A stretch of DNA of 64,000 nt, from NCBI GenBank assembly GCA_964632315.1, contig CAZWEM010000016.1:1-64000 (forward strand), in the 5' to 3' direction. The number at the start of each line of letters is the position of its first letter. Positions within the stretch are counted from its first letter, which is position 1. A program made the translations under genes and the position numbers. Below the pieces are notes generated by a model. The model worked only from the letters and a program-made list of their open reading frames with translations. It did not search any database and was not told the origin of the DNA. Shown in pieces: positions 18,197-57,967 of the stretch. The DNA comes from an uncultured archaeon. Lineage in GTDB: Archaea; Asgardarchaeota; Lokiarchaeia; Sigyniarchaeales; SOKP01.

Positions 18197-20101
18197 ATTT
18201 CATTAGATTTTGCCCTTAAGGATTTTTACCGTAAAAGGGAAATATCGTTACCGTATACCTTAATCATTGCTTTAGTTATCGGATTAGCAGAGTTTATGAT
18301 TTATTTCTCAACCTCTTTTGGGTTAAATACCCTTATCACTTACAATTTTGAAAATCCATTATATTTTTCAGGAGGTTTGAGCCAAATTTATTCTAATTTT
18401 ACACTAATGATTATTAGTTTGATTCTTTTATTAGCTTTTGTAATGGTAATTGTAGTTACGAGTAGTCTAATTGTGACTAAAAAAAGAGATATCGCAATAA
18501 TGAAATCACTTGGAGCCATCCCAAGAAAATTATATAGCTTCTATTTGACAGAAACTTTTATTTCTTTTCTTTTAGGCTTTGTATTAGGATTGGTTTTTGG
18601 GTTTATTACATATTTAATTTTTAATTTAGTCATGATGAATATTGGTTTTTTTCCTTACTTTTATTTTGATTTCTTCTTTACACCAATTCTTTTTGTTAGT
18701 TGTATCTTAGGAATTTTTTTCATATCAGGTGCTGTATTACGTAAGCTTGGGAATAAACAAGTTATTGATAGTTTTTCAAAAGATATACCATATGATTATG
18801 ATGCTTCAAAAATCAATTTAATACCTCGATGGTTAACTCGCTTTGGATTTAACTTTAAAATTTCAATCATTAACATAACTAGAAGAACCAGTGAATTTAA
18901 AAGGTATTTCACGGTTTTTTCTTTCCTCTCCATTCTTATATTTACTTTGGCATTAGGTACCCTTGTGTTGAATAATTCTGCTCAAACCTGGATTCAAAAA
19001 TCGCAAGGAGATGATGTTATTGTCATCGGACACCGAGAATTATTAAGTAATTATTCAAATATGTACGAACTATTTTCAAATCCTACCATTCACATTGATG
19101 ATGGATTTAATCTCTTGAAAAAAGATTATATGATCAATTTCAGTTTGATTGAAGGATTAAAGAATTTTTCTCAAATCCAACAATTTGATGAGAGATTATT
19201 ATTATATTCTGATTTAAAAGAATTAGACGGATATTATTATTATGAAGGTGGCGGATATCAGATTGTTGGTCAGCAACGAACGGGAAGGTATCCAGTTATG
19301 GGAATAAATACAAGTAGTCTAATTCAAAACTTTGAAATCGAGGGAGACTACTTTACTTCTTCAAATTCCTATGATTTAATGCTCATAGGAGATGGATTAG
19401 CGTATAATTTTTTTGATTATCCTTTTGATCAAAGTGCTCGGATCGAACAAATTGATCATACATTTCACGTTTCTGGAGTAGTAATTGATACATTTTTTAG
19501 TGGATATGCTGCATATATAGATCTCAATGTTATGAGGGAAGCCTTAAATTATACTAATAGAGAAAGTAACCTTGTCTTATTAAAACTTAATCCTAACACG
19601 TTTAACACAATTAAAGATGATTTAAATGATTATGTTAATACAACATTAGGAGGAGATTTTCAAGTTAGGTCGATGGCGACAACTTTTCACAAGAATATAA
19701 ATTTCGTCAATGATCTCAGCCTTATTCCTGGGTTTTTGATCCTGATATTAGGTATTATCTCTGTTCTGAGTTTATACAACTACCAAAAAAGTGGAATTAT
19801 AGATAAGGCAAAGGATTTTTTAATAATAAGGGCTTTAGGTTCAAAATACCGAAACTTAAAACGTATAATTTTTTTAGAATCCCTTTATGTCATTATACCC
19901 GCTTTATTCTTGAGTTTGGGAGTAGGAATGATCCTGAATGGCATAGTCCTTTTTGACAGAGTGAGTCTACCCAATATTTCAGTCCCCTTTTTATTAATTG
20001 GGATAATGATGGTCTTATTTCTATTAATTAACTATTTGAGTGTGTTTCCCTTGATGAAAAAAATTGAAAAATTTTCTATTAAGGACTTTGAAATTTATTA
20101 A
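18197..20101 (+). CDS. FtsX/MacB-like ABC permease (probable ATT start 18197)
   Basis: Two FtsX-type motifs (IAIMKSLGA, IIRALGS). The frame is open from ATT after SD GAGGAG and adds a first TM helix. Confidence 0.8.
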   Translation: MSLDFALKDFYRKREISLPYTLIIALVIGLAEFMIYFSTSFGLNTLITYNFENPLYFSGGLSQIYSNFTLMIISLILLLAFVMVIVVTSSLIVTKKRDIAIMKSLGAIPRKLYSFYLTETFISFLLGFVLGLVFGFITYLIFNLVMMNIGFFPYFYFDFFFTPILFVSCILGIFFISGAVLRKLGNKQVIDSFSKDIPYDYDASKINLIPRWLTRFGFNFKISIINITRRTSEFKRYFTVFSFLSILIFTLALGTLVLNNSAQTWIQKSQGDDVIVIGHRELLSNYSNMYELFSNPTIHIDDGFNLLKKDYMINFSLIEGLKNFSQIQQFDERLLLYSDLKELDGYYYYEGGGYQIVGQQRTGRYPVMGINTSSLIQNFEIEGDYFTSSNSYDLMLIGDGLAYNFFDYPFDQSARIEQIDHTFHVSGVVIDTFFSGYAAYIDLNVMREALNYTNRESNLVLLKLNPNTFNTIKDDLNDYVNTTLGGDFQVRSMATTFHKNINFVNDLSLIPGFLILILGIISVLSLYNYQKSGIIDKAKDFLIIRALGSKYRNLKRIIFLESLYVIIPALFLSLGVGMILNGIVLFDRVSLPNISVPFLLIGIMMVLFLLINYLSVFPLMKKIEKFSIKDFEIY

Positions 20102-49441: not shown

Positions 49442-50518
49442 TTACTCATATATTTTTTGGATATGATACTTCAATTTGCAATCACATTCCATTTTCTCTT
49501 CTGGATACTTGATTTCATTAAGGTTTTGAGTAAGTACAAACTTTTGTAGTATTTTTTTCATGTTCTCATTACACAGCCTATCATTACAATTGTGTATTCC
49601 CCTTTTTGTACCTGCTCCAGAAGGATCTGACACAATACGCGTGCTTTCTAATATTTCTTGAGAGCTTATTGCAGACTTCAGACATTTTATTAAAGAGTAA
49701 AACCATGGTGGACGATAAAGCTTTTTTTTCCAAAGATATTCAACCAAAGTACCTTTTTGAATGTTAATAGGGTTAATAGAGATAGTATTAACTTTTAATT
49801 CTATCAATTTCTTGATTGAAGTGACACAATCATCGATCGCGGACTTTTCATTAAGGAAAGGGGGTTTTAATAAAAGATATACTCTTACGCCTAATTGATA
49901 GCTTTTGCATAACTTTACAGCTGATAAAAAGTCATCATAAAGTAGTCCCTTGTTCAAGTATTTAATACGGATATGATCATTCGAAGTTTCTAGTCCTATG
50001 GCTATCTCAATATGTTTATTCCCTAACATTTCTTTCATTTTCTTTAGCTTTGTTTTATCCAAAAATTCAACTCGAGATTCCACAACTATCTCCTTAATCT
50101 TATCAACTTGACTGATTTTTTGATAAATTAACTCTCTCGTATCTTCATTCATTTCTTCATCATCAAAGAAACTGCCAGAATTAAATATTTTTATAATAAA
50201 ATTAAAACTATCTTTCTCTATCTCTTCAATTTTAGCATTCCATGCTTTCTGGAATTGATTTATAATGTGATGGGATTCCACATTTTTTATATAAGAATCT
50301 TTAATGTATCCACACATAGAACATCCCCCTGTATCGCTTAATGCCCATTTACATCCTCTTGTTCTAAGAATAATTGTAAACTCTTTGCCAATCTCGTTTA
50401 ATAAACGATCTTCCTTTATCCAATAACTTATTGGGTTACTCAATTCCCTTTCAGATAGTTCGGGTATTTCTTTTAGGGCTTTTTTCCGAATTTGTTTCAA
50501 TTCTTCGATCATTTTCAT
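49442..50518 (-). CDS. Radical SAM enzyme for archaeosine synthesis (RaSEA-like)
   Basis: ILRTRGCKW...GGCSMCGY, FNSGSFFD, GLET, LLKPPFL, YRPPW; overlaps the arcS stop. Confidence 0.85.
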   Translation of the reverse strand: MKMIEELKQIRKKALKEIPELSERELSNPISYWIKEDRLLNEIGKEFTIILRTRGCKWALSDTGGCSMCGYIKDSYIKNVESHHIINQFQKAWNAKIEEIEKDSFNFIIKIFNSGSFFDDEEMNEDTRELIYQKISQVDKIKEIVVESRVEFLDKTKLKKMKEMLGNKHIEIAIGLETSNDHIRIKYLNKGLLYDDFLSAVKLCKSYQLGVRVYLLLKPPFLNEKSAIDDCVTSIKKLIELKVNTISINPINIQKGTLVEYLWKKKLYRPPWFYSLIKCLKSAISSQEILESTRIVSDPSGAGTKRGIHNCNDRLCNENMKKILQKFVLTQNLNEIKYPEEKMECDCKLKYHIQKIYE

Positions 50519-52584
50519 TATTTTCCTGCTTTATTGATTATTTCTGCAATTCTACCTGACATTGAATTTTTAAGAAATGAAGCTCCCACTATCATCTTTG
50601 CAATGGAAATAATGTTTTGCTTTTCGTTATCCCATATCACTACATACCCTTTCGGTTTTAAATCTAAACTATAATCGATAATACCTGGTCTGAATAAAGT
50701 GCTCCCTCTTATTTGCTTACCGTCAAAAATTATATACTTATATTTTCTGAAATGCTCTTTAATCTTATTTGCTCCTTTCAAAGTTAATTCTAACTCGCCG
50801 GTATTTTGATCATATTCTCCCAAATTAGATTTTGATTTTAAATCAACTATGAAAGAGAGTTTTCTTCTTCTATCTTCCTTTATCTTATAATCACCAGAAA
50901 GAAGCAGTTCTCCAACCATTTTACCGTAATGATAATCGATAATTTTTTCCAATTTTCTTTTATGATAATTTACTTTTGGATTAGATTGGATCGGATTAAG
51001 ATTAAATTTTTCTATTGAATTTCCTAAAGATACGAGGGAATCACGTGAAGTCGTGGATCCAACAATATCAGTGAAATAAAAATTATGATCAGTTTTATCA
51101 ATTACTTTAGATACAATTTTTCGATAGCCTCCCTTTGGGAGATGACAGATTATTGGTATTTGGGAGTTATATTTTTCAAGGAATTTTAATAGCATATTTT
51201 CAGTAATCTTGATCTCAGTATCATCCCACTCTCCAGTTACTGAGATATTATATGAATTTGCTGGATATATTGTTTCAAGTTGCCGAGGAATGACTCCTAG
51301 TGGAGATGTAAGGATAAATTCTTGGATCTGTGAAAAGTTTGCATTTTTCTTCATTACTGAAAGAAATTTACGATGAGATTTTGATAAAGAATACGGTTTT
51401 TTAGATGAACACGGTAATAAAACGATTATCTTAGTCCAATTCTCAGGTGTAAATGTCTCCACCACTCTTTTCCTAAATCTTACAAAATCAGGGCGATGAT
51501 AAGAGGAGGGGCCTATGCTATTAATCGTCATTCTTTCTTGAATTACTGGTGTTTCACTACAAATAAATTCAGAATACTGTTTATCTAAAATTTTTAACAT
51601 TGAAATGAGGTTTGTGTCATCATTCGAAGATTTTTCAACGAAAAACCTAAAATCTTCCGTTTTAAGATATTGTTTTATTTTTTGCATGTAATTGTTAAAT
51701 GTTGTTAAATTATGCAGCGAAAGCAATTCTATTTTCTCTCTTGAAGGAGATGTTGAATCTAGATCTAATAATTTTGTCCTACATGAGCTACATGAACAAG
51801 CGAAATATTTCATTTTATGCAATGGTATTGAATATTCAATGGTATTATAAAAATACTCAGATGCAAGAAAGAGAGAATAAGATGCATCAATTAAATCAAA
51901 TCCCAAATATACCAATAAAGGGTAAAATTTTGGAATTATTTTACCCGAAATCATTAAGACTAAGTTAGGATCTAAATCTCTTTTTACTTGGATAATTAAT
52001 TTTAAGATTTGTCTGAAATTTTTGATGGAATTAAAAAGATCTTCAAAATTCAGGAGCTTGATATTATTATACTGTTTGAATAAATCAATGTATTCCTCTA
52101 TTAAATCTGGATAATCAAATAATTTAATGGTGACTCCAAAATTTAAATCAGGATACTCTTCCAATATATTTCTTGCTGTTTTAACATAATGATTTATTTC
52201 ATTTTTAGCAAACTCTCTATTTACAACATATGATGGATTATTGAATGGGATTAATGCAATTAAGTTATCTTGTGAGAAAATTTCAATTTTTTCCTCTAAA
52301 ATCTCTTGAAATCTTTCCAGAGTTCCATAATGAGTGTAAATAAACCCATTTTCTCTGAATTTATCTTGAATAAAAGCGATTTTAAGAAACATCACTTTTG
52401 AAATTATAAAAATTTGGTGTTTTTCAAATTCCTCCAAAAATGATACGATGCTCAATAAAAAATTCTTTAAAGGAATTACCGTATTTGGAGTAGATACAAA
52501 CCTTTTGAATTCTTTGGATAATATGATTCGACCCGTTCGTGATAAACCAATCTCTTTTCTCAGTAACTCAAAAAAAAAAGTCAT
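50518..52584 (-). CDS. arcS: Archaeosine synthase alpha subunit (TGT-like, DUF5591-like and PUA domains)
   Basis: CSCSSC...HN, LLPCSSKKPYSLSKSH, TSPLGVIPRQLE and PUA-like GSTLFRPGI. Confidence 0.85.
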   Translation of the reverse strand: MTFFFELLRKEIGLSRTGRIILSKEFKRFVSTPNTVIPLKNFLLSIVSFLEEFEKHQIFIISKVMFLKIAFIQDKFRENGFIYTHYGTLERFQEILEEKIEIFSQDNLIALIPFNNPSYVVNREFAKNEINHYVKTARNILEEYPDLNFGVTIKLFDYPDLIEEYIDLFKQYNNIKLLNFEDLFNSIKNFRQILKLIIQVKRDLDPNLVLMISGKIIPKFYPLLVYLGFDLIDASYSLFLASEYFYNTIEYSIPLHKMKYFACSCSSCRTKLLDLDSTSPSREKIELLSLHNLTTFNNYMQKIKQYLKTEDFRFFVEKSSNDDTNLISMLKILDKQYSEFICSETPVIQERMTINSIGPSSYHRPDFVRFRKRVVETFTPENWTKIIVLLPCSSKKPYSLSKSHRKFLSVMKKNANFSQIQEFILTSPLGVIPRQLETIYPANSYNISVTGEWDDTEIKITENMLLKFLEKYNSQIPIICHLPKGGYRKIVSKVIDKTDHNFYFTDIVGSTTSRDSLVSLGNSIEKFNLNPIQSNPKVNYHKRKLEKIIDYHYGKMVGELLLSGDYKIKEDRRRKLSFIVDLKSKSNLGEYDQNTGELELTLKGANKIKEHFRKYKYIIFDGKQIRGSTLFRPGIIDYSLDLKPKGYVVIWDNEKQNIISIAKMIVGASFLKNSMSGRIAEIINKAGK

Positions 52585-52639: not shown

Positions 52640-53896
52640 CTAAAAAATTATGAAATTCGTGTGACTAATTAGCTCATCCAAAACAAAATTAGTAAAAGTA
52701 TCTTCTATATCTTCGGAATTGTAAAGATTTCTCATAAAATCAGCATAATCTTCTATTTTATTAACTCTAACAATGGCGAATAATCCATATTGTTCTCCAA
52801 TTCTAAATAGATCTGTAATGTATTTATTTGAATCTAGTCTCTTAGCAAGCTCATCATATTTTGAAGGATTTTTTGGTTTTATCCTAAGTAGATATTTTCC
52901 TTCAAACCCTACTTTTTTCGGAGAAAAGTTTACGGTATAATTTAAGATATTTCCATTATTTTCCAATCTTTTAATTCTATTATGTACAGTTGATTGAGAT
53001 ATTTCCATTTGAAATTGATTCTTGAAAATTTTACTTATTTCATATGTCGATATCGGTCTAGAGCCTTGAAAATCCCGAAGTATATGAAGAATTGAAAAAT
53101 CAATATCATCTATTTCAAATTCTGTATCCGCAATTTTCTTATCTGGTTTTAAGCCAATAATTTTGAATATCATTTCTATAATTTGTTCTATCTTACTATC
53201 CTTTTTTAAACCAGAAATAACAACTTTTCCATTTTCAAATATCGTAAATGATCTTGTTGGGCTCTCAAATCTTATTAATAGACCTGGAAATTTCTCGGGA
53301 TTAAATTCGATATTCATTTTTTCTTTATTCCTTGAAATAATTTCATTTAAGTCCAATCTCTCTTTAAGTTCTACTATAACATTATTTTTAGAAGGATCTT
53401 TGTTTTCTAAATCATCAATCAATTTTTCTTTCAGTGACATTCTTGTTTTTCTTAAACTTATACCGTTTGTTTTAAACACCTTAATAGTGTCAATAATTTG
53501 GTATTTTTTAAAATAGGACTTTGCCATTATTTTATCAATCGTGTTCAATATCTGATAATATTCTCTTGAAGATTTAAAAATTAATAAAGCAAATAAAGAA
53601 AAATCCCCAATAATACCATCTAACATCCTTAATTGTGAGATTTTTAATAGTTCATTTACCAATTCAGGTTCTTTAGGATTAGTTTTAATCTCAAGCATCA
53701 CAAATTTCAAGTTATTGGGTCGAATATCAGGATTTATGTTTATAGTAAAGTTTGTAATAATTCTGTCTTTTCTTAAATAACCAAGCTTATTTTGATATGT
53801 TTGCCTTGATAGTCCTAATTTTCGGGAATTTTTTGAAGCGCTGAACTTGGATTTACTATTTAGATTTTTTAATATATTTAAGGATTGGATATTCAT
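52640..53896 (-). CDS. Tandem Lrp/AsnC regulator with an inserted TBP-like repeat
   Basis: HTH-RAM at aa about 1-145 and 260-418; aa about 171-247 read LDLNEI...EFNPEKFPGLLIRFESPTRSFTIFENGKVVISG. Confidence 0.8.
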   Translation of the reverse strand: MNIQSLNILKNLNSKSKFSASKNSRKLGLSRQTYQNKLGYLRKDRIITNFTININPDIRPNNLKFVMLEIKTNPKEPELVNELLKISQLRMLDGIIGDFSLFALLIFKSSREYYQILNTIDKIMAKSYFKKYQIIDTIKVFKTNGISLRKTRMSLKEKLIDDLENKDPSKNNVIVELKERLDLNEIISRNKEKMNIEFNPEKFPGLLIRFESPTRSFTIFENGKVVISGLKKDSKIEQIIEMIFKIIGLKPDKKIADTEFEIDDIDFSILHILRDFQGSRPISTYEISKIFKNQFQMEISQSTVHNRIKRLENNGNILNYTVNFSPKKVGFEGKYLLRIKPKNPSKYDELAKRLDSNKYITDLFRIGEQYGLFAIVRVNKIEDYADFMRNLYNSEDIEDTFTNFVLDELISHTNFIIF

Positions 53897-54033
53897 TTCA
53901 TTACATTTTATTAATTTTTATGGAAATTATAAATTAAATGTTAGTTTTTACATAAAAATATTTGCTTTTAACCAAAAAAAGCTTTATTAATTAATTAAAC
54001 TTAAAAATCTTAAAACTCAAAAACTGAACAAAA

Positions 54034-55302
54034 ATGGTAAATTACAAAGTTGCTGATGAAAACCTTGCAGAACAAGGCAAAGAAGCTTTATACATTGCTG
54101 AAAATAAAATGCCGGTAACAGCTAAAGTCATCAGAGAGCGATTTGAAAGAGAAAAACCTTTAAAAGGAATAACGATAGCAGGATGCCTACATGTTACCAA
54201 AGAAACTGGAAATCTGGCCCGAACTCTAAAAGCTGGCGGAGCAGAAGTATACTTATGTGGTAGTAATCCATTATCTACACAGGATGATGTCTCAGCTGCT
54301 TTAATCAAGGAAGGCATTAATGTTTTTGCGTGGCACGGAAACACTGATGAGGAATTTTACTGGTGTATCAGACAATGTCTTAAAGCCAAACCAAATATAT
54401 TGATTGATGATGGGGCCGATATGATAGTCACTGCCCACAAGGAATTCCCTGAATTAATTCAAGATGGTACTATAATTGCTTGTCAAGAAGAGACAACTAC
54501 GGGGGTAAAACGATTTAGGGCAATGGATAAGCAAGGAGCCCTTAAAGTTCCTTTATTTCCAGTTAATGACGCACGATGTAAAAATCAATTTGATAATGAA
54601 TTGGGCACGGGACAAGGTATTGTGGCAGCAATCTATGGAATGCATGTTTTATTTGCTGGAAAGAATGTAGTTATTGCGGGATATGGGCATTGTTCATCTG
54701 GAATGGCTCTTCGAGCAAGAGGATTAGGCGCAAGTGTAACGGTTACAGAAGTAGATCCCATCAAAGCACTTCAAGCAAAATTTTCTGGTTTTAACGTGAT
54801 GCCTATTGCAGAAGCTTTACCTAAAGCAGATATAGTTCTCACTGCGACCGGATGTAAACATGTTATTACTCCTACTGAAGAAATGTTCAATAAACTTAAA
54901 GATGGGGTGATTCTTGGCAATTTAGGTCATTTCGATATTGAGATTCCAACAAAAGAACTCTATGAATATTCTAAAGAGATTAATCCAATTCGAAAGGATG
55001 TAGAGGAATTAATCTTTTCTGAAGGTAAGAAAGTATATTTATTAGCAAAGGGAAGACTGGCTAACTTGGTTTTATCTGAAGGGCATCCAAGCGAAGTCAT
55101 GGATATGTCATTTGCACTTCAGTCATTAATGTCCGAATTCATCGTCAAGAATAAGGAAAAGCTGAAAGCCGGTATAATTGAAGTCCCTACTGAAATAGAC
55201 GACCAAGTTGGACTTTTAAAGCTTAAAGCAATGGGGGTTGAAATTGATAAGCTAACTGAAGAACAATATAATTACATTCATGGTTATGAAGAAGGAACTT
55301 AA
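54034..55302 (+). CDS. ahcY: Adenosylhomocysteinase
   Basis: GCLHVTKET, SNPLSTQD, EETTTGV, GYGHC, GHFDIEI, GRLANL, GHPSEVMDMSFA. Confidence 0.96.
   Translation: MVNYKVADENLAEQGKEALYIAENKMPVTAKVIRERFEREKPLKGITIAGCLHVTKETGNLARTLKAGGAEVYLCGSNPLSTQDDVSAALIKEGINVFAWHGNTDEEFYWCIRQCLKAKPNILIDDGADMIVTAHKEFPELIQDGTIIACQEETTTGVKRFRAMDKQGALKVPLFPVNDARCKNQFDNELGTGQGIVAAIYGMHVLFAGKNVVIAGYGHCSSGMALRARGLGASVTVTEVDPIKALQAKFSGFNVMPIAEALPKADIVLTATGCKHVITPTEEMFNKLKDGVILGNLGHFDIEIPTKELYEYSKEINPIRKDVEELIFSEGKKVYLLAKGRLANLVLSEGHPSEVMDMSFALQSLMSEFIVKNKEKLKAGIIEVPTEIDDQVGLLKLKAMGVEIDKLTEEQYNYIHGYEEGT
55188..55302 (+). repeat. Left copy of a 115-bp direct repeat (ahcY 3' end)
   Basis: 93/115 identical, ungapped, to 58981-59095 (hand count). 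Confidence 0.9.
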
Positions 55303-55708: not shown

Positions 55709-57967
55709 ATGAATTCTATTTTTGAAAAAATTATTGAACCTACTGACAAATTTATATTTTTAGTTGGAGCAGGAATTTCTATGGATACTCCAAGTAGACT
55801 GCCTTCAGCTAAAAAGTTTGTTGAAACTCTGGTAAGATTATCCGTTCCTGCTGAAGAAATTGATCTGATTTTACAACAAGAATCTTTAAGATATGAGGTT
55901 TTTATTGAACAACTTCAACAATATATTGATAAATCTCTTAGATTTCTGGATTTTTTGGAAACAAGAATGAAACCAAATCTTATCCATTACTTTTTAGGTC
56001 ATAACATTATTGCTAAAAACTTTGTAATAACCACGAATTTTGATTACTTAATTGAATATGCACTGATAAACCTTCTTTCCAAAGAAGAAAGGAGCAAGAT
56101 AAATCCTATAATCCTAAAAAAACAATATTTAGATCTTAATCCGATAAGCGATTTAGCAAATACCAAACAGTTCTTACTTTTTAAACTCCATGGGTCAAAG
56201 AGAAATCTTATAACAGAACAAAATACAATCGAATCTTTGATTACTACCATTTCCTCACTAGGAAGGGATCGAGAGGAAGGGGACACTTTGACTATTGAAC
56301 CATATAAAAAGCCAATAATTTCTAAAATAATAAAAGATCGTGTTCTAATCATATTAGGCTATTCTGGAAGTGATGATTTTGATATTACTCCTTTCTTAAA
56401 AGAAATCACTTCATATCGAAAAGTCATTTGGATTGACCATATCCTGAAAACAGGATTAGAAAATATAGAAATAAATCATTTCAATTCAGGTTTAAATTCA
56501 GATCTAGCAAAACAAGAAAAACTCTTATTTGATATAAAGAATACACACAATATTGAGACATACTTAGTCAAAGTGAATACTAAAACTTTTATATCAGAAA
56601 TCTTATGGTCGAAAATTCTACCATCCATTGCAATCACTAAAGAAGAGGTTGAGGATGATATAATTTATCCTGATTTTGATGAATGGATAAAAACATTGGA
56701 TGAGTATGAAAATATTGATTTAATTACCCAATATAAATTCGCAGGATATATTTACTACAGTCTAAGTGATTGGAAAAATGCAGGACGTGTATGGCAAAAA
56801 GGATTAGATTTAGCTAGATCTAAGAATGATCTAAAAGGGGAATCAGAATTTTTAACCAATGTTGCAAGCCTCCCTTCTAGAGAATTACCCATTAATGAAT
56901 GTTTAGAAAATTTAGAAGTAGCAAAAAATTTATATGTCAAGCTTAATGATTATGAAGGGCAATCATCTTGTCTGAATAATATCGGAACCATCTATTCTAA
57001 TGAAGCCGATTTCAAAAATGCTATAAATAATTATTTGGAATCATTAAAGCTTAATGAAATACATAATGATTTAGAGGGATCTATAGTCCCTCTTCTTAAT
57101 CTTGGAGCCACTTATGGAAAAATGGGAAATCAGGATAAAGCTTTAGATTATTATCAAAAAGTTTTAAATATAGTAAATAAAACAGGAGATTTGCAACATA
57201 AAGCGCAAGCACTGATGAATATTGGGGTGGTTCATAAAGCCTCTGGAGAGAAGGAGAAAGCCTTGAAATTTTTTGAAGAAGCTTTACAGATTGATATTTT
57301 ACTTGGAACAATTCCAGAACAAACTGTAAGGCTAAATTATATTGGTTTAACATATCAAGATTTAGGGGATTATGACAAAGCATTTGAATTTTTTAATAGA
57401 GGACTTTATTTAGCAACAGAGATAAATGATTATGAGAGCAAGGCAAGTCTCTTTCATATGATTGGAAATTTACATGATCTTTTGAAAAACAAGCTAGAAG
57501 CTACTAAGAATTGGGAGAATGCTCTTAAAATTTGTGAAGAACACAATATGATCCCTAATAAAGTGAACATTCTAAACTCTATGGGATCCTCCGCCTATAA
57601 TCTCGGGAATTATGATGAAGCTTTAGCACTATTCAGGCGCTCTTTAGAAACCGCTCAGGTAATTGGTGATAAGAATTTCATTATTGAAATGTATAATAGT
57701 ATAGCTGTAGTATCTCATACTATGCAAGACTACGAAAGATCTTATAATAGTTATTTAATGATCCTTGATCTCTTAAAAGATGGCGATGATATAGAGAGAA
57801 AAGCGAAATATCTTAGAAGTATGGCTATTTCTTATTATAATTATACACAAGATTGTGAAATGGCAATTGAGATATTAAAAGATGCCCAAGCAATTTATGA
57901 AGGATTAGGTGATGCTCAAACTATAGAGGAAATTAAAAATGACATTGAAAATCTTCAAAATCAATAA
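55709..57967 (+). CDS. SIR2-like domain protein with C-terminal TPR array
   Basis: FLVGAGIS, TTNFDYLIE, KLHGS and ILGYSGSDDFDI, followed by about 9 TPRs (e.g. LNNIGTIY, LMNIGVVH). Confidence 0.88.
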   Translation: MNSIFEKIIEPTDKFIFLVGAGISMDTPSRLPSAKKFVETLVRLSVPAEEIDLILQQESLRYEVFIEQLQQYIDKSLRFLDFLETRMKPNLIHYFLGHNIIAKNFVITTNFDYLIEYALINLLSKEERSKINPIILKKQYLDLNPISDLANTKQFLLFKLHGSKRNLITEQNTIESLITTISSLGRDREEGDTLTIEPYKKPIISKIIKDRVLIILGYSGSDDFDITPFLKEITSYRKVIWIDHILKTGLENIEINHFNSGLNSDLAKQEKLLFDIKNTHNIETYLVKVNTKTFISEILWSKILPSIAITKEEVEDDIIYPDFDEWIKTLDEYENIDLITQYKFAGYIYYSLSDWKNAGRVWQKGLDLARSKNDLKGESEFLTNVASLPSRELPINECLENLEVAKNLYVKLNDYEGQSSCLNNIGTIYSNEADFKNAINNYLESLKLNEIHNDLEGSIVPLLNLGATYGKMGNQDKALDYYQKVLNIVNKTGDLQHKAQALMNIGVVHKASGEKEKALKFFEEALQIDILLGTIPEQTVRLNYIGLTYQDLGDYDKAFEFFNRGLYLATEINDYESKASLFHMIGNLHDLLKNKLEATKNWENALKICEEHNMIPNKVNILNSMGSSAYNLGNYDEALALFRRSLETAQVIGDKNFIIEMYNSIAVVSHTMQDYERSYNSYLMILDLLKDGDDIERKAKYLRSMAISYYNYTQDCEMAIEILKDAQAIYEGLGDAQTIEEIKNDIENLQNQ

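What the first reader, a model, noticed from the sequence alone, without database searches (positions are those of the whole stretch)
53156..53386. TBP repeat embedded in a tandem Lrp/AsnC transcription factor
aa about 171-247 (NNVIVELKERLDLNEI...EFNPEKFPGLLIRFESPTRSFTIFENGKVVISGLK...IEQIIEMI) match one TATA-binding-protein repeat, whose consensus is LDL..IA...EY.PEQFPGL.YR...P....LIF.SGK.V.TG.K. Both DNA-intercalating Phe positions are kept (FPG and IF). The repeat sits between two HTH-RAM modules. Established: TBP has two such repeats, Lrp proteins oligomerise, and some (Ptr2) recruit TBP. Inference: oligomerisation could assemble a built-in TBP saddle, giving a regulator that supplies or occludes TATA binding, plausibly at the divergent ahcY promoter.
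Basis: partly seen in the sequence, partly recalled or inferred. Interest (0 to 1): 0.75.

Follow-up and report, generated by a model that had tools for sequence, protein, structure and literature searches.

The report
Lrp regulator carrying half a TBP
A gene regulator of a Loki-type Asgard archaeon, encoded beside the SAH-hydrolase gene, has one half of the general transcription factor TBP inserted between its two DNA-binding units; the half is real, conserved and undescribed in the papers I could search, but it is optional and is more likely an extra DNA contact than a private TATA-binding saddle.

Summary
Observation confirmed. The ORF at window 52640-53896 (-) encodes 418 aa: a divergent Lrp/AsnC module, one TBP repeat (Pfam PF00352, E 3.8e-16, aa 175-247; fold Z about 10 to solved TBPs) and a second Lrp/AsnC module. 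It is not an assembly artefact: 86 full-length orthologs carry the repeat, all in Loki-type Asgard archaea.

The regulator lies between an ArcS-like gene and a divergent ahcY in all 24 loci examined, including two outgroup families that lack the repeat. Trees plus leftover linker stubs indicate one gain and at least four later deletions.

The repeat derives from the N-terminal lobe of the lineage's own TBP. It keeps both intercalating Phe positions (97/97 and 84/97). Its central strand S1 is about 4 residues shorter, and it evolves 3-5 times faster than the Lrp modules (dN/dS 0.26-0.39 against 0.04-0.17). Lineages that deleted it kept the same promoter.

The "built-in saddle" idea is therefore not supported. 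An optional tethered DNA-contact or kinking module is my best reading (about 0.45).

This scan has already found and followed up the same family in at least 8 other genomes, with similar conclusions.

New here: this genome's only canonical TBP gene carries a 30-nt intron-like insert.

The parts
52640..53896 (-). Whole gene: 418-aa tandem Lrp/AsnC regulator with an embedded TBP repeat (stop codon at 52640-52642)
   Evidence: ORF list and translation. 100% self-match and 86 full-length orthologs that carry the repeat.
53447..53896 (-). Module 1 (aa 1-150): divergent Lrp/AsnC unit, a three-helix HTH plus a RAM domain; the recognition helix around R31-K37 is invariant
   Evidence: No Pfam hit alone. 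A profile of 20 orthologs hits PH1519/FL11 at E 6e-8 over chain residues 10-127, and LrpA at E 2e-5. AF2 secondary structure is HTH plus beta-alpha-beta-beta-alpha-beta. Invariant columns are listed.
53120..53434 (-). The insert relative to TBP-less orthologs (aa 155-259): an acidic linker helix, the TBP repeat and a C-terminal linker
   Evidence: Clean gap at query aa 155-259 in the 318-aa orthologs.
53147..53383 (-). TBP repeat proper (aa 172-250): short S1 172-176, H1 183-190, S2 195-199, stirrup, S3 203-210, S4 215-219, S5 224-228, H2 236-247. F203 is at 53288-53290 and F220 at 53237-53239.
   Evidence: Pfam PF00352 E 3.8e-16. PDB TBP hits. AF2. VIA Z 8-10 to TBPs, for example 1mp9_B residues 14-101, the N-terminal lobe. 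Conservation counts.
52643..53119 (-). Module 2 (aa 260-418): canonical Lrp/AsnC unit (HTH plus AsnC_trans_reg/RAM)
   Evidence: Pfam PF01037 at 39.9 bits and HTH_11 at 27.8 bits. PDB PH1519 E 3e-9 over aa 260-407.
53897..54033 (.). 137-bp shared control region between the regulator and ahcY. Conserved blocks: a putative operator at 53956-53973, a purine run at 53972-53981, and an A/T-rich TATA-like stretch at 53983-53999 that contains a 12-bp palindrome at 53987-53998.
   Evidence: Alignment of 21 loci. Coordinates. The same blocks are kept in lineages that deleted the TBP repeat. The functional labels are inference.
54034..55302 (+). ahcY (S-adenosyl-L-homocysteine hydrolase), divergently transcribed; the likely regulated target
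   Evidence: Pfam AdoHcyase E 1.6e-62. Divergent partner of the regulator in all 24 loci, including outgroup families f2 and f21.
50518..52584 (-). ArcS-like gene (TGT, DUF5591 and TGT_C2 domains) downstream of the regulator; a conserved neighbour
   Evidence: Pfam. Synteny in the family-f1 loci that reach far enough.

Best explanation
The gene encodes the conserved regulator of the ahcY locus of Loki-type Asgard archaea. It is a single-chain pseudo-dimer of two different Lrp/AsnC units.

In one sub-lineage, a copy of the N-terminal lobe of the cell's own TBP was inserted into the linker between the two units. My reading is that this lobe works as an optional, tethered accessory DNA-contact module. 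The two wHTH units anchor the protein on the 137-bp ahcY/regulator control region. The lobe then lays its beta-sheet face, with the two wedge Phe residues and the basic residues of S3 and S5, on nearby A/T-rich minor groove. This adds affinity or a kink and so tunes how the regulator competes or cooperates with TBP/TFB at the adjacent promoter. Repression by occupying part of the TATA region is the most likely outcome.

Shown: domain identity, fold, origin, conservation, optionality and synteny.

Inferred: DNA contact by the lobe, the site it touches, the sign of regulation and the effector.
For: - Real TBP repeat: Pfam E 3.8e-16, PDB TBPs E 1e-18, fold Z about 10.
- Origin from the N-terminal lobe of Loki TBPs: mean identity 39% to N lobes against 27% to C lobes. 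In the own genome, E 1.5e-17 against 2.9e-5.
- DNA-facing positions of S3-S5 are kept in 97 family members: Phe(S3) 97/97, Pro 96/97, Lys/Arg at the S3 Arg site 85/97, Leu/Ile(S4) 83/97, Phe(S4) 84/97, Lys/Arg(S5) 90/97, Val/Ile 84/97, Thr/Ser/Asn 81/97. An exposed Phe kept in every member argues for a contact through the concave face.
- Purifying selection acts on the lobe: dN/dS 0.26-0.39 in the more diverged of the six pairs listed.
- Both recognition helices of the Lrp units are invariant, so the protein is anchored on DNA.
- The regulator is divergent from ahcY in 24 of 24 loci.
- Precedent for a single TBP-fold domain acting as an accessory binder across a minor groove: the RNase H3 N-domain (PMC4132731).
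- A second Loki protein family also carries the same lobe as an optional C-terminal add-on. This fits a portable module.
Against: - No binding experiment exists, and I could obtain no geometry. The full-length AF2 model has pTM 0.40, so the position of the lobe relative to the HTHs is unknown.
- The S1 part that carries TBP's central Asn/Val contacts is missing or shortened.
- The Arg of S3 is mostly Lys and the Thr of S5 is often Ser or Asn. Net charge of the lobe averages +1.9, against +5.2 for canonical N lobes.
- The isolated RNase H3 N-domain does not bind dsDNA.
- Repeated loss without promoter change shows that whatever the lobe does is dispensable.
Confidence: 0.45

Rival explanations
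1. Protein-contact module. The lobe mimics TBP so as to bind something that normally touches TBP's N-terminal lobe or stirrup. Candidates are TFB, another TBP lobe, or the regulator's own RAM surface of the kind Ptr2-type activators use on TBP. The effect would be recruiting, sequestering or auto-inhibiting.
For: The stirrup segment (Y198, N199, P200, K/R202, F203, P204, G205) is the best-conserved stretch of the lobe. Archaeal Lrp activators contact TBP through RAM-domain surfaces (PMC2995911). The lobe is preceded by a conserved acidic amphipathic linker helix at aa 155-164. Such a helix could occupy a TBP surface.
Against: The lobe is N-type, whereas TFB binds the C-terminal stirrup of TBP (my own knowledge of the 1AIS complex, not tested here). 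Helix H2 and the convex side vary freely. The earliest-branching forms lack the acidic helix. No partner was tested.
Confidence: 0.25
2. Two lobes from two protomers of an Lrp oligomer pair up, or swap strands, into a TBP-like saddle that binds or occludes the TATA box.
For: Lrp proteins oligomerise (PMC2995911). A two-copy model of aa 158-258 scored 0.42, with the best of 3 controls at 0.00. That mark was reached by 20 of 30 proteins solved as pairs of one chain and by 1 of 23 solved as single chains. The runs agree in at least 70% of their contacts, and the partner's pLDDT is at least 59. The counts hold only roughly, because my own alignment was used. Two-lobed TBPs are solved, so the pass may come from memory.
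Against: One of the three runs scored only 0.06. The confident contacts (208 with 217, 206 with 219, 174 with 225) reproduce within-domain hairpins, which means a swapped or overlaid arrangement. They are not the S1-S1' edge pairing of TBP lobes. S1 is shortened or absent. Lineages that deleted the lobe kept the same TATA-like region. The lobe evolves far faster than a general factor would. The genome keeps a canonical TBP.
Confidence: 0.12
3. A nearly neutral passenger: a domain captured by chance in a tolerant linker, with no function of its own, on its way to being lost.
For: At least four independent deletions. Constraint is relaxed relative to the Lrp modules.
Against: dN/dS is well below 1 across deep divergence. 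F203 and G223 are invariant, and P204 is nearly so (96/97), in 97 sequences. No frameshifted or decayed copies were seen among the 86 full-length members. The same lobe was added independently to a second protein family.
Confidence: 0.08

Closest known systems
Archaeal Lrp/AsnC (feast/famine) regulators: FL11/PH1519 (PDB 2cyy, 2e1c), P. furiosus LrpA (1i1g), M. jannaschii Ptr2
   Same: wHTH plus RAM units. They are encoded next to and divergent from a metabolic target gene, and they probably bind just upstream of BRE/TATA. Module 2 passes Pfam PF01037. Module 1 matches PH1519 by profile.
   Different: Two non-identical units are fused in one chain, forming a pseudo-dimer. In this sub-lineage, a TBP lobe is inserted in the linker between the units. 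Known members touch TBP in trans; none in the papers I searched carries part of it.
Canonical archaeal TBP (S. acidocaldarius 1mp9, P. woesei 1ais/1pcz, M. jannaschii 2z8u; this genome's own TBP on contig C18)
   Same: Clear sequence homology and the same lobe fold. Both wedge Phe positions, the stirrup motif and the S5 Gly-Lys are kept. It is closest to the N-terminal lobe of Loki TBPs.
   Different: There is one lobe, not two. S1 is about 4 residues shorter and has lost the central Asn/Val register. The lobe evolves fast and is optional. It is embedded in a gene-specific regulator.
Monopartite TBP-domain proteins of Thermococcales (about 95 aa) and halobacterial TbpA (Brindefalk et al. 2013, PMC3597702)
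   Same: A single TBP domain exists outside a two-lobed TBP, and its function is unknown.
   Different: Those are stand-alone proteins, and the Thermococcales ones are only distantly related to TBP. This one is a recent copy of the host lineage's TBP lobe, built into another DNA-binding protein.
N-terminal domain of RNase H3 (PMC4132731)
   Same: A single TBP-fold domain serves as an accessory nucleic-acid grip in a multidomain protein, binding across a minor groove with its sheet face.
   Different: It is only a structural relative with three strands. It is specific for RNA/DNA hybrids and belongs to an enzyme, not a regulator.

Membership tests
Lrp/AsnC (FFRP) transcription regulators | C-terminal RAM / AsnC_trans_reg domain (beta-alpha-beta-beta-alpha-beta) | tested here: met
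   Module 2: PF01037 at 39.9 bits against a cut-off of 25. Module 1: profile hit to PH1519 covering the RAM part, E 6e-8. AF2 secondary structure agrees.
Lrp/AsnC (FFRP) transcription regulators | N-terminal winged helix-turn-helix DNA-binding domain | tested here: met
   Module 2: HTH_11 at 27.8 bits (cut-off 25) and HTH_AsnC-type at 23.3 bits, which is below its cut-off of 27. PDB alignments start in the HTH. Recognition helices are invariant in 98 sequences.
Lrp/AsnC (FFRP) transcription regulators | Dimer or higher oligomer formed through RAM domains; small-molecule effector bound between RAM domains | not testable with these tools
   The full-length model has pTM 0.40, so the inter-domain packing is unreliable.
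TATA-binding protein (Pfam PF00352 repeat) | Repeat sequence signature above the family's gathering score | tested here: met
   59.1 bits against 22.9, E 3.8e-16, aa 175-247, profile positions 11-82 of 85.
TATA-binding protein (Pfam PF00352 repeat) | S1-H1-S2-S3-S4-S5-H2 lobe fold | tested here: met
   AF2 element order with pLDDT 74-85. VIA Z 8.1-10.1, rmsd 2.4-3.8 A over 81-97 residues, for 33 TBP entries ranked first.
TATA-binding protein (functional TBP) | Two tandem lobes forming a ten-stranded saddle | tested here: not met
   One PF00352 stretch only. The flanks are Lrp modules.
TATA-binding protein (functional TBP) | Full-length S1 with the central Asn/Val DNA contacts and the lobe-lobe edge | tested here: not met
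   The Pfam alignment starts at profile position 11. S1 is 4 residues shorter than in Loki TBP N lobes. There is no separate S1 in the 408-416-aa early-branching forms. AF2 gives an S1 of 5 residues.
TATA-binding protein (functional TBP) | Pair of DNA-wedging Phe residues per lobe | tested here: met
   F203 in 97/97 and F220 in 84/97 sequences, aligned to the invariant Phe of 50 canonical lobes.
TATA-binding protein (functional TBP) | TATA-box binding and TFB recruitment | not testable with these tools
   This needs EMSA, footprinting and in vitro transcription.
Monopartite TBP-domain proteins (PMC3597702) | Stand-alone protein of under about 150 aa consisting of one TBP domain | tested here: not met
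   The domain is internal to a 418-aa protein.

The most novel reading that the evidence does not exclude
Lobes from neighbouring protomers of the DNA-bound Lrp oligomer pair up, possibly by strand swapping as the two-copy model hints. They would form a gene-specific TBP surrogate that nucleates or blocks TFB/RNAP at the ahcY promoter without the general TBP. This would be a natural experiment in how a two-lobed TBP could arise from a one-lobed DNA binder. In this particular genome the only canonical TBP gene is itself interrupted between its lobes.
Probability: 0.1. Interest if true: 0.9.

Novelty: new variant of a known kind. Interest (0 to 1): 0.6.

Why it matters
Specific regulators and general transcription factors are normally separate proteins that meet on DNA. 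Here a specific regulator has physically captured half of the general factor TBP. This happened in the archaeal lineage closest to eukaryotes, and natural with-lobe and without-lobe versions sit at the same locus.

That offers a ready-made system for two questions:
- What can a single TBP lobe do on its own? This question has been open since monopartite TBP domains were proposed as the ancestor of TBP (PMC3597702).
- How do archaeal Lrp regulators interface with the basal machinery?

It also points to a conserved, unstudied regulator of the SAH-hydrolase gene in Asgard archaea.

Tried and rejected
- Full-length AF2 model: the domain folds are acceptable, but pTM is 0.40. I could not use it to place the lobe relative to the HTHs or the linker. 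The Foldseek hits of the full model to whole TBPs have rmsd about 12 A and say nothing about the arrangement.
- Search of the 50%-identity representative library with the lobe alone returned only canonical two-lobed TBPs and a few odd ones. It did not return the fusion family, probably because the cluster representatives lack the lobe. It gave no survey of single-lobe architectures.
I have no read-level check of expression, of the regulator's transcription starts, or of splicing of the TBP insert.
- I looked for promoter features that go with presence of the lobe and found none. The A/T palindrome and the putative operator are present in with-lobe loci and are unchanged in secondary-loss loci. 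Some ancestral lobe-less loci have near-identical versions.
- Three literature searches, plus reading the TBP-domain superfamily paper and the archaeal Lrp review, found no description of an Lrp-TBP fusion. The library is incomplete, so this is not proof of absence.
- The ahcY tree was tried as a species proxy. It is poorly resolved and follows neither genus nor lobe state. I claim only incongruence, not a donor or a direction of transfer.

Full report
WHAT IS THERE

The minus-strand ORF 52640-53896 encodes 418 aa.

Pfam finds one TBP repeat (PF00352, aa 175-247, E 3.8e-16, 59.1 bits against a cut-off of 22.9). It also finds an Lrp/AsnC ligand-binding domain with its HTH at aa 264-407. The best PDB sequence matches of the middle segment are archaeal and eukaryotic TBPs (1mp9 E 9.5e-19). 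The C-terminal part matches PH1519/FL11, LrpA and AsnC.

The N-terminal 150 aa have no Pfam hit on their own. A profile of 20 orthologs hits PH1519 at E 6e-8 across HTH and RAM.

AlphaFold2 gives the lobe the canonical S1-H1-S2-S3-S4-S5-H2 order, and the lobe has the highest confidence in the chain (pLDDT 74-85). A domain-only model aligns to 33 solved TBP entries at Z 8-10. One example is the N-terminal lobe of 1mp9 over residues 14-101.

NOT AN ARTEFACT; WHERE IT OCCURS

A search of 5.8 billion proteins returns 486 relatives. Of the best 120, 86 are full-length proteins of 400-443 aa with the PF00352 segment. Another 30 are 311-343-aa proteins without it. Where sources give a name, all are named as Loki-type Asgard archaea.

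The short forms differ by one clean gap at query aa 155-259.

In a sample of 200 genomes of the phylum, the tandem regulator is in 39 of 40 other genomes of the window's family.
- 11 of these genomes carry the lobe, and G000 makes a twelfth.
- Both states occur inside genera g1 and g2.
- Two further families (f2 and f21) have a lobe-less tandem regulator.

CONTEXT

In all 24 loci examined the regulator is divergent from ahcY, including the outgroup families. In the family-f1 loci that reach far enough, an ArcS-like gene follows it. The regulator is therefore an old, locus-bound partner of ahcY, and the lobe is a later addition.

The 137-bp control region has conserved blocks, with window coordinates:
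- a putative operator at 53956-53973;
- a purine run at 53972-53981;
- an A/T-rich TATA-like stretch at 53983-53999, containing a 12-bp palindrome.

HISTORY

I built trees from the Lrp columns only, rooted on f2/f21. In these trees the lobe-less forms are basal and every lobe-bearing form falls in one well-supported clade (support 98). Lobe-less forms are nested in that clade at four places, and starred branches force at least four changes (FastTree; IQ-TREE PMSF).

Independent of rooting, two nested lobe-less proteins keep stubs of the insert. P0116 keeps the acidic N-terminal linker helix. P0106 keeps the C-terminal linker. The deletion boundaries differ among the four.

So the history is one gain followed by at least four deletions. 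The neighbouring ahcY tree does not track lobe state (6 changes, shuffled mean 6.5). For example, G000's ahcY groups with lobe-less genus-mates. The regulator allele has evidently been exchanged by recombination. I claim no direction.

ORIGIN AND STATE OF THE LOBE

The lobe is closer to the N-terminal than to the C-terminal lobe of Loki TBPs.
- Mean identity is 39% against 27%.
- In the own genome the match is E 1.5e-17 against 2.9e-5.
- It shares lineage-specific residues in H1 and in the S5 turn.

DNA-facing positions of S3-S5 are largely kept across 97 sequences:
- Phe(S3) 97/97;
- Phe(S4) 84/97;
- Lys/Arg at the S3 Arg site 85/97;
- Lys/Arg(S5) 90/97;
- Thr/Ser/Asn 81/97.

These positions are invariant in canonical lobes.

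The lobe differs from canonical lobes in three ways.
- S1 is about 4 residues shorter. The Pfam match begins at profile position 11, and the earliest-branching forms have no separate S1.
- Net charge averages +1.9, against +5.2 for canonical N lobes.
- dN/dS is 0.26-0.39 for the lobe against 0.04-0.17 for the Lrp modules, in the more diverged of the six pairs listed. The lobe is selected, but 3-5 times more loosely.

TEST OF THE SADDLE IDEA

A two-copy model of aa 158-258 scored 0.42, with the best of 3 controls at 0.00. One of the three runs scored 0.06. That mark was reached by 20 of 30 proteins solved as pairs of one chain and by 1 of 23 solved as single chains. The runs agree in at least 70% of their contacts, and the partner's pLDDT is at least 59. 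My own alignment was used, so these counts hold only roughly. Two-lobed TBPs are solved, so the pass may come from memory.

More important, the confident inter-chain contacts (208-217, 206-219, 174-225) are the within-domain hairpin pairs. That means a swapped or overlaid arrangement, not the S1-S1' edge pairing that joins TBP's lobes.

Loci that secondarily lost the lobe keep the control region essentially unchanged, palindrome included. The genome also keeps a canonical TBP. I therefore rate the built-in saddle at about 0.12.

BEST READING

The lobe is an optional tethered accessory on a DNA-anchored regulator. It most likely contacts or kinks A/T-rich minor groove near the promoter (0.45).

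The invariant exposed Phe, the kept basic residues and purifying selection favour a concave-face contact. The RNase H3 N-domain is a precedent for a single TBP-fold domain used as an accessory grip (PMC4132731).

A protein-contact or mimic role (0.25) cannot be excluded, given that Ptr2-type Lrp activators work through TBP (PMC2995911).

NOVELTY

Three full-text searches and two key papers gave no description of this fusion. The databases do carry the Pfam hits.

This scan has already met the same family in at least 8 other genomes, and several were followed up with the same outcome. This report is an independent confirmation on another ortholog. It adds the linker stubs, the S1 detail, the contact pattern of the dimer model and the unchanged promoters after loss.

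SIDE FINDINGS

- The only canonical TBP gene of this genome (contig C18) has an in-frame 30-nt insert with a stop codon between its lobes. Removing L001 1799-1828 restores the junction seen in all relatives. The RNA folds into a relaxed bulge-helix-bulge shape (-21 kcal/mol, z -4.6). None of the 29 genus-mates that gave a match, and none of 23 other family genomes with a TBP match, has the insert.
- A second Loki protein family exists with a C-terminal copy of the same lobe (about 320 aa) and without it (about 220 aa).

Noticed in passing
G000 contig C18, about 18710-19396; locus L001 1426-2112 (+), insert at L001 1799-1828: The genome's only canonical two-lobed TBP gene is interrupted between its lobes by a 30-nt in-frame insert that carries a TAA stop. 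Removing it restores the lobe junction found in all relatives. The RNA folds into a relaxed bulge-helix-bulge shape (MFE -21 kcal/mol, z -4.56). The insert is absent from the 29 other genus genomes that gave a match and from 23 other family genomes with a TBP match. It is probably a recently gained tRNA-type mini-intron, like the one this scan noted in dnaG of the same genome.
   Followed up: partly
L063 2276-3241 (+) (G071 contig C14): A second Loki protein family carries the same N-type TBP lobe as a C-terminal add-on. About 58 of the listed clusters are 316-324 aa with PF00352. Many relatives of 219-232 aa lack it, and no Pfam family matches the N-terminal 220 aa. G000 has only lobe-less relatives of that N-terminal part.
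   Followed up: partly
Genomes of family f1: Many relatives encode 2-4 canonical TBP paralogs, whereas G000 has one. The global library also holds proteins with four TBP stretches (P0121 at 376 aa and P0126 at 702 aa).
   Followed up: no
window 54034-55302, and ahcY of 18 other loci: The ahcY tree follows neither genus codes nor the regulator tree. For example, a g2 copy pairs with a g1 copy at support 99. This suggests frequent recombination at this locus.
   Followed up: partly
L024 13-2268 (G083), against window 55709-57967: The SIR2-TPR gene that follows ahcY in the window is also next to ahcY in another genus-mate, at 78% identity over 751 aa. This bears on the scan's separate note about an islet at the 3' end of ahcY.
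   Followed up: no
window 50518-52584 (-): The conserved downstream neighbour is an ArcS-like protein (TGT, DUF5591 and TGT_C2 domains). It lies beside ahcY, the gene for SAH hydrolase. Whether the two genes share the regulator is open.
   Followed up: no
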